From a virus (Duplodnaviria > Caudoviricetes): a stretch of 64,000 nt of DNA. A program made the position numbers and the translations under genes. How positions within the stretch are numbered: the first letter of the stretch is position 1; every line of letters starts with the position of its first letter. This document shows, piece after piece, positions 26,499 through 42,970 of this stretch. The stretch lies in the IMG/VR virus record IMGVR_UViG_3300024346_000004. One strand, given 5' to 3'. The notes under the pieces are model-generated. The model did not search any database. It was given only the letters and a program-made list of their open reading frames with translations, and was not told the DNA's origin.

Positions 26499-26520
26499 AT
26501 TATAATCCGAAAAGATTTGT

Positions 26521-26552
26521 ACAGGAGGTTATTTTATTTTTCTACCTCCTGT
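26521..26552. other. Inverted repeat (hairpin/cruciform) between phoH and the 1935-aa gene
   Basis: ACAGGAGGT-14 nt-ACCTCCTGT; no clean U-tract. Confidence 0.55.
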
Positions 26553-33974: not shown

Positions 33975-34005
33975 CTCCTTAAGTATGCGTGTATAATGTC
34001 TGTAT

Positions 34006-39478: not shown

Positions 39479-40036
39479 TTGATGGAACATAATGATGATG
39501 ATTTCAATTACAGAGATCTCAAAAATATAATAAACGCACAAACAGAAGCTTATGTAGAATTCAATAATGCACTAGTAAGAATCATAGAACTTCAAAAACA
39601 GATTAAAGAAGAAATTAATCGTGTTGGGGATACTGATTTAGACGAGCTTAAAGGCATTTCTGAAAAAATAACCAAAGTTACTACTTTACTGGAATTATTT
39701 ACTGATAATAAAAACAGTCTAGCTAATGAGATGGACGAGTACAATGCTGTTCTTTCTGATTTCGGTTCAGAATTACAGAGTTTTAAATTCGACTTAGAAA
39801 GAATTATTCTTACCCAAGCTTCTAATAATGAATATGAAAAACTGAATAGATCTTTCAACGACAAATCAAATACTTTAAAATCCCTTATTGATACTTTGGG
39901 TAAAAAAGTAGATTCTATGCAAGGTACACAAGATAAAGCATATAGCCAAGTTCAAAAATTCTTATGGGGCTTAGGCGGAGCTTGGTTCGTTATTCAATTT
40001 TTAATTAGTATTGGACTGTATAATCTTAGGAAATGA
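39479..40036 (+). CDS. Coiled-coil protein with a C-terminal transmembrane helix
   Basis: Heptad-rich body, ends FLWGLGGAWFVIQFLISIGLY; start may be ATG 39482. Confidence 0.7.
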   Translation: MMEHNDDDFNYRDLKNIINAQTEAYVEFNNALVRIIELQKQIKEEINRVGDTDLDELKGISEKITKVTTLLELFTDNKNSLANEMDEYNAVLSDFGSELQSFKFDLERIILTQASNNEYEKLNRSFNDKSNTLKSLIDTLGKKVDSMQGTQDKAYSQVQKFLWGLGGAWFVIQFLISIGLYNLRK

Positions 40037-40398: not shown

Positions 40399-40627
40399 AT
40401 CCTTAATCAGTTGCTATTGCTCCGAATGCTATGAACAGTATTTTATGAGCAATGATGAAATATTAATACCTAAATCTATGAGTATTATGGCAAAAGCAAA
40501 AAATATCGAAGATCCAAAAACATGGATCGATTGGCTAGAACATATTCAAAATTATTGTCCTGAATGTAGGCTTAAAAAAGCTCCTGAATCATGTATTAAT
40601 AATTTATCTAGAATGACTAAGAGATAG
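40391..40627 (+). CDS. Small putative zinc-binding protein
   Basis: CYCSEC...YCPEC; the in-frame ATG at 40391 overlaps the upstream stop. Confidence 0.6.
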   Translation: MSKSLISCYCSECYEQYFMSNDEILIPKSMSIMAKAKNIEDPKTWIDWLEHIQNYCPECRLKKAPESCINNLSRMTKR

Positions 40628-41096
40628 CTTTTTCAACTAAAGATTTGAACATATCTTTTAATATTTTTTCAGAATCACTAGTAATCTTACCGTCTGAAAA
40701 TTCTAATCTTCCGCTGTCTAATAAATAAGAGGCTAGTCCTAATCCTGCATCTTCTGCTGTTTCAATTAATTCAGGATTAATCGATAATGGTTCAGAAGAA
40801 TTATCTATAGATTCATTTTGTGCAGTTCTAAATATTCTTGAAAATAAATGATCTATATATCTATCGTCTACAGATGAAGTTCTAAGATTATCAATATCTG
40901 CTTGTGGTATTTTGTTAACGTATGATTGAACAGCTTCTTTATGTTTAGGACATTCCCAGTAAGTAGATCTTAAACCACCTCTACAGTCTAAACATACAGG
41001 TGCGCCACATTCTGGTTTACTACATACACCCATGTAAGCTCTATGTACAGGCTTACCGCATTGTGAACATGTTAAATTAGGAACGTAATTTTTCAT
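40617..41096 (-). CDS. Zinc-finger protein with an acidic C-terminus
   Basis: CSQC...CSKPEC...CLDC...CPKH, followed by IFRTAQ. Confidence 0.7.
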   Translation of the reverse strand: MKNYVPNLTCSQCGKPVHRAYMGVCSKPECGAPVCLDCRGGLRSTYWECPKHKEAVQSYVNKIPQADIDNLRTSSVDDRYIDHLFSRIFRTAQNESIDNSSEPLSINPELIETAEDAGLGLASYLLDSGRLEFSDGKITSDSEKILKDMFKSLVEKAIS

Positions 41097-41100
41097 TTGC

Positions 41101-41129
41101 TTGACAATTCTACCTTTAAAAGATATATT
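41101..41129 (+). promoter_or_regulatory. Near-consensus sigma70/sigmaA promoter for the lytic transglycosylase
   Basis: TTGACA-17 nt-TATATT. Confidence 0.8.
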
Positions 41130-41135
41130 ATAGAT

Positions 41136-41265
41136 GTATTAAGGGGAAACCTTTAATATAGTAGGGCCTGAGAGGCAGCCCGAACTTATGCCATTCGTGG
41201 AAATCCAATAAAGGATGTCTCATACGTTGGAAAGAGCTAACACTTTCCCAACGCACTCTGGAGGT
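41136..41265 (+). ncRNA. Structured 5' leader, candidate cis-regulatory RNA/riboswitch
   Basis: GC-enriched 135-nt leader with at least five stems (GAAA and UUCG loops), ending in GGAGGT. Confidence 0.5.
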
Positions 41266-41270
41266 ATCAA

Positions 41271-41906
41271 ATGAAATATTTGGCACTATTTATGAGTATG
41301 ATTTCTTTCATACAAGTAGGTGTTAAGCATGAAAACTCGAAAGGTGCTTTGGTTGGTGCGGATACTACACAACAAAAATTAAATCTGCAAGCTTCTGAAA
41401 TGAGTCCTGATAAGAAAAAAATTATTGGCTTCATTCAGATCATACAACCAAAATATCCTATGGCAAAAGTTAAACAAATAGCTGATGTCATATTCTTAGC
41501 GAGCAAAAGATATAGGATTGATCCTTATGTTATTACTACTACAGCTTATGTAGAAAGTGAATTCGACATGAAATCAAAGCCCTGTATCGGTATTATGCAA
41601 ATGCTAGGATCTACAATTAGATCAGAATACAAAGGTACAAAACATGACCCTCGTACAGTACAAGGGAATATCATGTTAGGAACTGATTATCTGAAGAAAA
41701 TATTAGATATGCAAAAAAACAAATCTAATAGCCCATCAAGAATATCAGCTGACTGGAGATTCTATCGTCTAATGTGGGGCAGATATAGTGGGTATGGGAG
41801 CGGAAGTTTCTATGTCAAAAGAAACCAGACTGTGCTCCATTCCTTAAAAACCCTTAGCCTAGATAAACTCAAAGCTAAAATTAAAAGTAAAGGGCATATC
41901 TGGTAA
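41271..41906 (+). CDS. Lytic transglycosylase (SLT family) with an N-terminal hydrophobic signal/SAR-like segment
   Basis: YRIDPY...AYVESEF (catalytic Glu), IGIMQM, NIMLGTDYL, RYSG. Confidence 0.88.
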   Translation: MKYLALFMSMISFIQVGVKHENSKGALVGADTTQQKLNLQASEMSPDKKKIIGFIQIIQPKYPMAKVKQIADVIFLASKRYRIDPYVITTTAYVESEFDMKSKPCIGIMQMLGSTIRSEYKGTKHDPRTVQGNIMLGTDYLKKILDMQKNKSNSPSRISADWRFYRLMWGRYSGYGSGSFYVKRNQTVLHSLKTLSLDKLKAKIKSKGHIW

Positions 41907-41943
41907 AAAAAATGGGGAAGATAGAAATATCTTCCCCATTTTT
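41905..41943. terminator. Bidirectional Rho-independent terminator
   Basis: A8-TGGGGAAGATA-GAAA-TATCTTCCCCA-T5 between convergent genes. Confidence 0.9.
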
Positions 41944-41962
41944 AGCTTAGAAAGCAGAGAGA

Positions 41963-42799
41963 TTAGTAACCTCTGCGCTGTCCTGATGGATATCTTGAAG
42001 TCTGAGCTGCCAAAGAAATATTTGGTGTAGCATTTCCAGCTGCAAGAATCTGAGTCATGTCGAGAACTAATCTATTAAATTCGAAAGTATTCTTTTCGAA
42101 CTTCTTTTGAAGATTTCTCATAGAAAGAATAGTTTCGTTTGCGACGAGTGATCTTGCATCGTAATCTGTCTCTGCAACAAGAGCTGCATAAGCAGTGTCG
42201 AATGCAGTACAGGCTGCGACGATCTGATCCTTGACCTTAAGGAAATCTTCCCAGGTTTCGGTAGCGAGTGATGTTGCTGCAACGCCAACGTTAACGTCAG
42301 TAGGATACTTAGCAACTGAATTGTATACAGCAACAGCTGGTAACTCTTCAAATCTTACTGCATCAATACCGAGGGTAAATCCAGCAAGAATATTTCTAAG
42401 AACGAATACTTTCGCTCCGTTGACAGTACCACCATTGACAGCAACAAACTTGAAGTTGCTAGCTGCAAGTAATTTTGCAGAAGTGTCAAAGCTGGTATTT
42501 CTTGACCATGCACCAGATGCTGCGGTATAGATACCATTGTCAAATGCATTTGTCTGATTTTTTACGAGAACAAAGTTACCAGCTGAAACAGAAACACCAT
42601 CGATGGTCTGTGCGCCAGTAAGAGCGATGTTTGCTGTAGTAGCAGCATGAATAGTGGCAGGTGTACCTACTGTACCAGCAGCAGTAAATGCGACACTGAC
42701 AGCCTGAGTAAATTTAATTTCTCTCTTATCAGCAACGTTATCAACTGCTCTTGCTCCAGGTGCAATTCCACTGATGAAACTAGATGGATAGTTTGGCAT
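41963..42799 (-). CDS. Virion protein with one DRILVKNQ-NGIY module (decoration/fibre-like)
   Basis: AATTANIALTGAQTIDGV...VLVKNQTNAFDNGIY...W.R; AGGAG ribosome-binding site; higher GC than its neighbours. Confidence 0.75.
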   Translation of the reverse strand: MPNYPSSFISGIAPGARAVDNVADKREIKFTQAVSVAFTAAGTVGTPATIHAATTANIALTGAQTIDGVSVSAGNFVLVKNQTNAFDNGIYTAASGAWSRNTSFDTSAKLLAASNFKFVAVNGGTVNGAKVFVLRNILAGFTLGIDAVRFEELPAVAVYNSVAKYPTDVNVGVAATSLATETWEDFLKVKDQIVAACTAFDTAYAALVAETDYDARSLVANETILSMRNLQKKFEKNTFEFNRLVLDMTQILAAGNATPNISLAAQTSRYPSGQRRGY

Positions 42800-42907: not shown

Positions 42908-42937
42908 ACAGGATATATAAACCTTCTTGGAGAATAT
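42908..42937 (+). promoter_or_regulatory. AGGA-N18-GAAT promoter (rightward; heads the tail-fibre operon)
   Basis: ACAGGA-N18-GAATAT. Confidence 0.7.
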
Positions 42938-42970
42938 GCTATCTGTACAATAATCTTTGTAAAACAAAAA

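What the first reader, a model, noticed from the sequence alone, without database searches (positions are those of the whole stretch)
41101..41270. Riboswitch-like structured leader on the lytic transglycosylase, with c-di-AMP (ydaO) riboswitch-like blocks
Seen: a TTGACA-17-TATATT promoter is followed by a 135-nt GC-enriched leader. It contains TATTAAGGG-GAAA-CCTTTAATA; GGGC...GCCC (41164-41181); a TATG/CATA-closed junction holding CCA-TTCG-TGG and ATCC-AATAAA-GGAT; CGTTGGAAAG...CTTTCCCAACG; then the SD GGAGGT. Blocks GGGGAAACC, GTAGGGC..GCCCGAAC and AGCTAAC occur in the order I recall for ydaO/c-di-AMP riboswitches, which often control cell-wall hydrolases. However, the GCUGAAUC and GGGGUGAAU blocks are missing and ~45 nt are inserted. 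Inference: a variant or new cis-regulatory RNA gating a wall-degrading enzyme that would otherwise be expressed early from a strong host-type promoter.
Basis: partly seen in the sequence, partly recalled or inferred. Interest (0 to 1): 0.75.

Follow-up and report, generated by a model that had tools for sequence, protein, structure and literature searches.

The report
Structured leader RNA before phage transglycosylase
The 135 bases between a host-type promoter and a jumbo phage's cell-wall-cutting enzyme gene fold into a chain of RNA hairpins that natural variants of the phage preserve, but the stretch is not a c-di-AMP (ydaO) riboswitch, matches no catalogued RNA family, and occurs only in this one phage species.

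Summary
The structure is more than chance. In 37 metagenome contigs of the same phage species, 11 of 24 terminal-loop bases vary but only 2 of 70 stem bases do (Fisher p = 2e-6). Both stem changes are C-to-T and keep a G.U pair only on the + strand.

So this is a real, selected, + strand leader RNA of the SLT transglycosylase mRNA.

The ydaO reading fails. Rfam gives no hit at gathering score, and RF00379 is not listed even at E <= 10. The only nearby hit is DUF805b, at 15.7 bits against a cut-off of 35.6.

The leader has no second copy in the window. It has no homologue in about 85 sister-lineage SLT loci or in five sister jumbo-phage genomes. Those phages carry a short leader with a different conserved hairpin.

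No compensatory double changes exist, so the switch logic is untested. My best reading is a ligand-independent leader: a 5'-terminal protective hairpin plus an occluded ribosome-binding site that throttles an exported wall hydrolase, as in the T4 gene e leader. A new orphan riboswitch or protein operator is not excluded.

The scan has noted similar, sequence-unrelated leaders before muralytic genes in other genomes.

The parts
41101..41129 (+). Sigma-70-type promoter: TTGACA, 17-nt spacer, TATATT. The predicted transcription start is about 41136.
   Evidence: It matches 11 of 12 consensus positions. None of 35 positions varies in 37 contigs. Equivalent promoters abut the divergent start codon in sister lineages. 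The start site is inferred, not measured.
41136..41159 (+). HP1: a 10-bp hairpin that begins at the predicted 5' end. The stem is 41136-41145 paired with 41150-41159 and includes two G.U pairs. The loop is 41146-41149.
   Evidence: The stem is invariant. All 4 loop bases vary (GAAA, CTAA, CTAT, GTTA). The G.U pairs form only on the + strand.
41164..41181 (+). HP2: a GGGC/GCCC stem with a 10-nt loop.
   Evidence: Loop positions 41172, 41175 and 41177 vary. The stem change C41167T gives U.G on the + strand and C.A on the - strand.
41187..41224 (+). Small three-way junction: closing stem TATG/CATA, HP3a CCA-UUCG-UGG (41191-41200) and HP3b AUCC-AAUAAA-GGAU (41203-41216).
   Evidence: Loop changes occur at 41197 and 41210-41212. 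C41221T keeps a G.U pair. The change at 41197 breaks a pair of the competing MFE helix.
41225..41253 (+). HP4: a 10-bp hairpin with one bulged C. Its loop is AGCUAACA and it ends 6 nt before the SD.
   Evidence: It is fully invariant in 37 contigs. It is predicted in every fold. It occupies the same position as the conserved hairpin of sister lineages.
41255..41297 (+). Ribosome-binding region: SD GGAGGU 41260-41265, AUG 41271, and a predicted weak hairpin that pairs the SD and AUG with codons 3-9.
   Evidence: The mean unpaired probability of the ribosome-binding site is 0.21, the lowest of 38 genes. This is prediction only. Positions 41254-41270 are invariant.
41271..41906 (+). Gene for an exported or membrane-anchored lytic transglycosylase of 211 aa, with an SLT domain.
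   Evidence: Pfam PF01464 matches at 33.9 bits against a cut-off of 21.3. The core TAYVESEF...PCIGIMQ is invariant across the family. The N-terminus is hydrophobic.
40617..41096 (-). Divergent neighbour: a fast-evolving Cys-rich orphan protein of 159 aa.
   Evidence: No Pfam, PHROG or PDB match was found. Variable columns by codon position 1/2/3 are 21%/11%/48%.

Best explanation
SHOWN: The stretch 41136-41270 is the 5' untranslated leader of the SLT transglycosylase mRNA of an uncultured, AT-rich freshwater or estuarine jumbo phage. Its RNA, read on the + strand, folds into consecutive local modules: HP1, HP2, a small three-way junction and HP4. Natural selection keeps these modules paired.

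INFERRED:
1. Host RNA polymerase starts at about G41136 from the TTGACA-17-TATATT promoter, so HP1 sits flush at the 5' end. There it would protect the mRNA from 5'-end-dependent decay.
2. The rest of the leader, together with the first codons, keeps the unusually strong SD (GGAGGU) and the AUG largely base-paired. Translation of an exported, potentially self-lytic wall hydrolase is thereby held low, or delayed, without any small-molecule ligand. This would work in the manner of the inhibitory leader of T4 gene e.
3. The leader is a lineage-specific replacement for the short hairpin leader carrying an anti-SD sequence (complementary to the SD) that sister phages place before the same gene.
For: Structure under selection:
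- Stems vary at 2 of 70 positions and terminal loops at 11 of 24 (Fisher p = 2e-6).
- The chance of at most 2 variable sites in 70 at the third-codon rate of 0.23 is 2.5e-6.
- No variant breaks a pair.

Strand:
- Both stem changes, and the two fixed G.U pairs of HP1, pair only on the + strand.

Promoter:
- Searches support it.
- A natural IS605/TnpB insertion in L129 lands exactly at 41097. It leaves the promoter and leader intact, so they behave as one unit.

Occluded ribosome-binding site:
- Accessibility is the lowest, and the upstream fold the most stable, of 38 genes.
- The SD unpaired probability is about 0.05-0.24 per SD base.

Family theme:
- Sister leaders carry a UCCU anti-SD next to the SD. 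In two lineages the MFE fold pairs it with the SD.

Precedent:
- In T4 gene e, an inhibitory leader helix lowers lysozyme synthesis about 100-fold from early transcripts (PMC3014915).

No terminator:
- No terminator-like hairpin with a T-run lies in the leader. Any control is therefore at translation or stability.
Against: - No transcript data exist: the start site, HP1's 5'-terminal position and expression timing are all predictions.
- There are no compensatory double substitutions, so the fine structure is unresolved. This applies above all to the choice between the local junction and the long-range helix 41188-41196 with 41260-41267.
- Linkers, the junction and the HP4 loop are also almost invariant (1 of 24). 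That could mean a specific tertiary fold or a bound factor rather than passive hairpins. It is not significant against the neutral rate (P about 0.1).
- No internal second promoter of the T4-e kind was found.
Confidence: 0.5

Rival explanations
1. It is a new, orphan regulatory RNA: a riboswitch for an unknown ligand, or a translational operator bound by a phage or host protein or small RNA. It would switch the SD between a free and a paired state.
For: - Only terminal loops drift. Linkers, junction strands and the HP4 loop are nearly invariant (1 of 24, against 11 of 24 in loops; p about 0.01-0.015 for each class). Folded, ligand- or protein-binding RNAs show this pattern.
- Two mutually exclusive pairings exist for 41188-41200: the local junction, or the SD.
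- The sister family hairpin is conserved in sequence, which suggests a trans-acting reader.
Against: - It is confined to one species, with no homologue in sister loci or genomes and none in Rfam.
- Linker conservation is not significant against the neutral rate.
- No covariation supports the switch helix.
- No ligand clue comes from the gene context.
Confidence: 0.2
2. It is a diverged member of the ydaO/c-di-AMP riboswitch family.
For: Only gene context supports this: ydaO elements precede wall hydrolases in some bacteria (established knowledge).
Against: - RF00379 gives no match at gathering score in 64 kb.
- It is not among the hits at E <= 10 in a 501-nt scan with permissive filters.
- The block GGGGAAACC is a freely mutating loop (GAAA to CTAA, CTAT or GTTA).
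- The supported fold is a string of separate hairpins with one small junction.
Confidence: 0.01
3. The inverted repeats work as DNA. They would be operator palindromes for regulators of the divergent promoters, with conserved half-sites and free centres, rather than RNA.
For: Conserved arms with variable centres also fit binding sites for dimeric proteins. HP1 lies at +1 to +24, a classic operator position. The region lies between divergent genes.
Against: - There are five different repeats with unrelated sequences in 120 nt.
- Four positions are G.T in the repeats (two fixed, two arising in variants). These are mismatches as DNA palindromes and on the - strand, but pairs in + strand RNA.
- The 3-4-bp stems are too short for operators.
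Confidence: 0.07
4. It is an independent small RNA gene, or the hairpins serve the antisense 5' region of the divergent 159-aa gene's mRNA.
For: The - strand also folds well (-38.2 kcal/mol, z = -2.09). The divergent gene needs a promoter somewhere to its right. Weak - strand promoter matches lie at 41326-41298 and 41466-41439.
Against: - No terminator lies between HP4 and the SD.
- The G.U evidence favours the + strand.
- In L129 an IS element separates the 159-aa gene side from the leader, yet the leader is unchanged.
Confidence: 0.07

Closest known systems
Inhibitory leader of bacteriophage T4 gene e (lysozyme), and likewise soc, 49 and I-TevI
   Same: A phage muralytic gene is transcribed from an upstream host-type promoter. 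Its SD and AUG are buried in an mRNA helix so that little enzyme is made too early (PMC3014915). Here the ribosome-binding site is the least accessible of 38 genes.
   Different: - T4 uses one hairpin and relieves it with late promoters inside the leader. Here there are five modules over 135 nt.
- No internal promoter was found.
- There is no sequence relationship.
- Occlusion here is only predicted.
5'-terminal stem-loop mRNA stabilisers, such as the E. coli ompA 5' UTR (own knowledge)
   Same: A stable hairpin with no single-stranded 5' overhang at the predicted transcript start (HP1, 41136-41159).
   Different: The start site is not measured. The host and its RNases are unknown. HP1 is only one of five modules.
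ydaO-yuaA c-di-AMP riboswitch (Rfam RF00379)
   Same: A long structured leader lies before a cell-wall hydrolase gene.
   Different: There is no match to the covariance model. The recalled blocks are not conserved. The architecture differs. The element is species-specific.
DUF805b RNA motif (Rfam RF02914)
   Same: HP1 and the following UAUAGUAGGG resemble its hairpin plus purine-rich tail. It was the best + strand Rfam hit.
   Different: It scores 15.7 bits against a gathering score of 35.6, with E = 0.1 in only 501 nt. The GGAA of the loop mutates freely in the population. The downstream gene is not DUF805.
The conserved SLT-leader hairpin of sister freshwater jumbo phages (undescribed, found here)
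   Same: Same gene, same divergent neighbour, same promoter type, a hairpin ending a few nucleotides before the SD, and a UUUCC word about 22-25 nt before the AUG.
   Different: The sister element is about 25-30 nt (UUUCAAG, a loop containing UUCCU, then GCUUGAAA) in a leader of about 60 nt. The window's leader shares no alignable sequence with it and adds about 75 nt of extra hairpins.

Membership tests
ydaO-yuaA c-di-AMP riboswitch (RF00379) | Match to the family covariance model at or above the gathering score | tested here: not met
   There was no hit in the whole window at gathering score. RF00379 is not among the 3 hits at E <= 10 in 40950-41450.
ydaO-yuaA c-di-AMP riboswitch (RF00379) | Conserved core nucleotides retained among relatives | tested here: not met
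   The recalled GGGGAAACC block spans a loop that reads GAAA, CTAA, CTAT or GTTA in variants. Sister lineages lack the leader.
ydaO-yuaA c-di-AMP riboswitch (RF00379) | Pseudo-two-fold architecture with two multi-helix junctions (own knowledge of the crystal structures) | tested here: not met
   The supported fold is three separate hairpins plus one small three-way junction.
ydaO-yuaA c-di-AMP riboswitch (RF00379) | Binds c-di-AMP | not testable with these tools
   This needs in-line probing or ITC.
DUF805b RNA (RF02914) | Match to the covariance model at or above the gathering score | tested here: not met
   The score is 15.7 bits against 35.6 at 41140-41167.
Riboswitch (any class) | Aptamer conserved, with covariation, across diverged lineages | tested here: not met
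   The element is found only in one species cluster (SLT 92-100% identical). No pair has a change on both sides. There are no homologues.
Riboswitch (any class) | Expression platform with mutually exclusive pairings that hide or free the SD | tested here: inconclusive
   The MFE fold pairs 41188-41196 with 41260-41267. The local junction is the alternative. Only the change at 41197 discriminates, and weakly, in favour of the local fold.
T4 gene e-type inhibitory leader | SD and/or AUG sequestered in an mRNA helix | tested here: inconclusive
   Sequestration is predicted: mean unpaired probability of the ribosome-binding site is 0.21, the lowest of 38 genes. There are no probing or covariation data.
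T4 gene e-type inhibitory leader | A second (late) promoter inside the leader that removes the 5' strand of the helix | tested here: inconclusive
   No TATAAATA lies in 41097-41270. I also saw no TGTAYAAT-type motif there on reading the leader. The phage's late promoter consensus is unknown.
5'-terminal stabiliser hairpin | Hairpin within 0-2 nt of the transcript's 5' end | tested here: inconclusive
   The -10 hexamer ends at 41129 and HP1 starts at 41136, the expected start site.
SLT-domain lytic transglycosylase (Pfam PF01464), for the downstream gene | Pfam match above the cut-off, and a conserved catalytic Glu-Ser motif | tested here: met
   The match is 33.9 bits against 21.3. E95-S96 within TAYVESEF is invariant in 15 family members.

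The most novel reading that the evidence does not exclude
The leader is a new orphan regulatory RNA: a riboswitch for an unknown signal, or an operator for a phage protein. Its conserved junction and linker nucleotides would form a specific binding core. It would decide when a jumbo phage releases an exported wall-cutting enzyme. It would have replaced an older, family-wide SD-pairing hairpin or pseudoknot that does the same job in sister phages.
Probability: 0.12. Interest if true: 0.65.

Novelty: new member of a known kind. Interest (0 to 1): 0.35.

Why it matters
The finding shows that within-species variation from metagenomes alone can validate an RNA fold when no diverged homologues exist: loops drift, stems hold, and G.U changes reveal the strand.

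Biologically, it adds a case to a recurring pattern in which phages put folded leaders in front of exported cell-wall hydrolases. T4 gene e is the textbook example, and this scan has noted several unrelated ones. The reason is presumably that mistimed expression is lethal to the infected cell.

It also exposes a second, much more widespread leader hairpin before the same gene in freshwater jumbo phages. That element would be the better target for experiments.

It is not a new riboswitch class on present evidence.

Tried and rejected
Searches and tests that led nowhere:
- BLASTN of 40600-42000 against 50,697 phage records found no match.
- A single-protein locus search in viral contigs found none.
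- The loose pattern GTAGGGC..GCCCGAAC in viral contigs gave only chance hits, more than 119.
- Specific HP2 and HP4 patterns in genome and viral contigs gave one unrelated hit each: a Planctomycetota MAG with 54% GC, and a coding-like context.
- Covariance model R1 found no second copy in the window (best other hit 12.9 bits). It found none in 41 sister loci and none in five sister jumbo genomes.
- Rfam scans of sister leaders found nothing.

Alternative readings rejected:
- A leader peptide. The 7-codon uORF at 41188-41211 loses its stop codon in the L149-type variants.
- The 3-bp extension of HP2 (AGU/ACU) is broken by A41184T.
- Loop-loop and loop-tail pairings that I tried by eye (HP2 loop AGAG with CUCU at 41256-41259) are broken by G41172A in L155. 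This is my own reading.

Tools and annotation:
- The function of the divergent 159-aa protein stayed unknown, with no Pfam, PHROG, PDB or Atlas lead.
- Paper searches for DUF805b and for GOLLD in freshwater jumbo phages gave nothing useful.

Full report
CONTEXT

The window is AT-rich (33% GC). It is full of very large ORFs and phage genes: PhoH, a Dda/exonuclease V-like helicase, and a tail-fibre/decoration module. It has no tRNA genes. No whole genome is held for it. An identical SLT protein sits on a 262-kb metagenome contig, and earlier notes call the genome a jumbo phage.

The finding lies in a 174-nt gap (41097-41270) between two divergent genes:
- a 159-aa Cys-rich orphan on the - strand (40617-41096);
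- a 211-aa SLT-domain lytic transglycosylase with a hydrophobic N-terminus on the + strand (41271-41906; Pfam PF01464 at 33.9 bits).

THE OBSERVATION

These are the promoter TTGACA-17-TATATT (41101-41129, 11 of 12 matches); HP1 at 41136-41159; HP2 at 41164-41181; a small three-way junction at 41187-41224 with HP3a (loop UUCG) and HP3b (loop AAUAAA); HP4 at 41225-41253; the SD GGAGGU at 41260-41265; and the AUG at 41271.

The + strand folds to -39.1 kcal/mol (z = -2.35). The - strand folds to -38.2 kcal/mol (z = -2.09). Among the 135-nt stretches upstream of 38 genes in the window, this one has the lowest MFE and the least accessible ribosome-binding site.

The promoter match by itself is not remarkable in this AT-rich DNA, because 33 matches of at least 10/12 occur and nearly all lie inside genes. 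It is nevertheless invariant in the population. Sister lineages keep a TTGACA-17-TAtAnT promoter at the same spot while the spacers differ.

IS THE FOLD REAL?

The SLT protein has a 90%-identity cluster of 51 members. I fetched 37 contigs of this phage species from many samples. These contigs differ from the window at 2.6-10% of positions over 40617-41906.

Variable columns by class:

| Class | Variable / total |
|---|---|
| Third codon positions, SLT | 23% |
| Third codon positions, upstream gene | 48% |
| Stem positions | 2 / 70 |
| Terminal loops of HP1, HP2, HP3a, HP3b | 11 / 24 |
| Linkers and junction strands | 1 / 15 |
| HP4 loop and bulge | 0 / 9 |
| Promoter | 0 / 35 |
| SD region | 0 / 17 |

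- Stems against loops gives Fisher p = 2e-6.
- The chance of at most 2 variable sites in 70 at the rate of 0.23 is 2.5e-6.
- The HP1 loop alone has four versions: GAAA, CTAA, CTAT and GTTA.
- No variant breaks any pair.
- The two stem changes are C41167T and C41221T. Both turn a C-G pair into U.G on the + strand and would be A.C mismatches on the - strand. HP1 also contains two fixed G.U pairs.

The hairpins are therefore selected as + strand RNA. They are not DNA palindromes and not an antisense transcript. There are no double (compensatory) changes, so this is conservation of pairing, not covariation. The choice between the local junction and the MFE's long-range helix (41188-41196 with the SD) is almost untested. 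Only G41197T, a loop change in the local fold and a broken pair in the MFE fold, leans towards the local fold.

WHAT IT IS NOT

- Rfam gives nothing at gathering score in the whole window.
- A permissive scan of 40950-41450 lists three weak hits and no RF00379. The only one on the + strand in the leader is DUF805b, at 15.7 bits against a cut-off of 35.6.
- A 7-codon uORF (41188-41211) is not conserved.
- No terminator-like hairpin lies in the leader.

HOW FAR DOES IT EXTEND IN NATURE?

A covariance model of the leader (R1) finds no second copy in the window. It finds nothing in 41 sister loci and nothing in five sister jumbo-phage records of 110-358 kb. Specific patterns for HP2 and HP4 hit only unrelated DNA. 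The next SLT relatives are only 36-47% identical. The leader is thus confined to one phage species.

THE SISTER LEADERS

About 85 loci of the same SLT family, mostly from lake metagenomes and some labelled marine, keep the divergent Cys-rich neighbour and the promoter. They have a leader of about 60 nt.

In 70 of them a single conserved element (UUUCAAG, a loop containing UUCCU, then GCUUGAAA) ends 19-24 nt before the AUG. It occurs nowhere else in 285 kb on either strand. Its UCCU word is complementary to the SD. In the L003-type and L161-type lineages the MFE fold pairs it with the SD. No Rfam family matches it.

The window's HP4 stands in the same position and contains CUUUCC, but it is not alignable with the sister element. 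Occlusion of the SD therefore looks like a family theme, realised differently in this species.

MECHANISM

Shown: a selected, + strand, multi-hairpin leader; an invariant promoter and SD; and no terminator.

Inferred:
- transcription starts at about 41136, so HP1 is a 5'-terminal hairpin and a likely protector against 5'-end-dependent decay;
- the strong SD and the AUG are mostly paired (unpaired probability about 0.2), which throttles translation of an exported wall hydrolase.

The closest documented precedent is T4 gene e. There an inhibitory helix lowers lysozyme synthesis about 100-fold from early transcripts, and late promoters inside the leader relieve it (PMC3014915). I found no such internal promoter here.

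A ligand- or protein-operated switch remains possible. Linkers, junction strands and the HP4 loop are nearly invariant while loops drift (p about 0.01-0.015 against loops). That is not significant against the neutral rate (P about 0.1), and a single-species distribution is unusual for a riboswitch.

VERDICT

Earlier notes of this scan describe analogous but sequence-unrelated structured leaders before muralytic genes in other phages and in CPR bacteria. I did not test those.

Noticed in passing
L003:2965-3009, L159:1378-1422, L158:1300-1344, L004:442-486 and about 66 further loci (L002-L009, L158-L246): Sister freshwater jumbo phages carry a conserved leader element of about 25-30 nt: UUUCAAG, a loop containing UUCCU, then GCUUGAAA. 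It ends 19-24 nt before the SLT start codon. It is present once in 70 of about 85 loci and nowhere else in 285 kb. The UCCU word is complementary to the SD, and in two lineages the MFE fold pairs it with the SD. No Rfam family matches it. It is a candidate new SD-occluding hairpin or pseudoknot motif.
   Followed up: partly
L129:1-826, with the junction at window 41097: One population variant has an IS605-family TnpB element (OrfB_IS605 plus Cas12f1-like_TNB). It is inserted exactly between the start codon of the divergent 159-aa gene and the -35 hexamer. Its right-end hairpin (CCCAGGG...CCCTGGG) abuts TTGCTTGACA. The SLT promoter and leader are intact.
   Followed up: partly
window 42936-42970, 62990-63015, 26499-26540 (- strand), 40010-40032, 33985-34005: Many genes here are preceded by a shared word of the type TGTA(C/T)AAT..ATCTTT about 12-25 nt before a start codon that has little or no SD. 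This looks like the phage's common extended -10-type promoter with very short leaders. The SLT gene, with its -35/-10 promoter, 135-nt leader and strong SD, is the exception.
   Followed up: no
window 40617-41096 (-): The divergent Cys-rich 159-aa orphan evolves fast within the species: 21%/11%/48% variable columns at codon positions 1/2/3, against 5%/3%/23% in the SLT gene. Cys-rich neighbours (2 x 102 aa) occupy the same divergent position in the sister loci whose gene calls I saw (L003, L004). Its function is unknown.
   Followed up: partly
L203:1215-1305, L214, L224 (another SLT lineage): One sister lineage has yet another, GC-rich leader (GCUGUGUGCG...ACACGCAGC hairpin) and a longer N-terminal region in the SLT protein. 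This suggests that leaders of this gene have been replaced repeatedly.
   Followed up: no
window 41907-41962: A convergent-gene gap holds a clean bidirectional terminator-like hairpin (GGGGAAGATA...TATCTTCCCC) flanked by A- and T-runs, just after the SLT stop codon.
   Followed up: no
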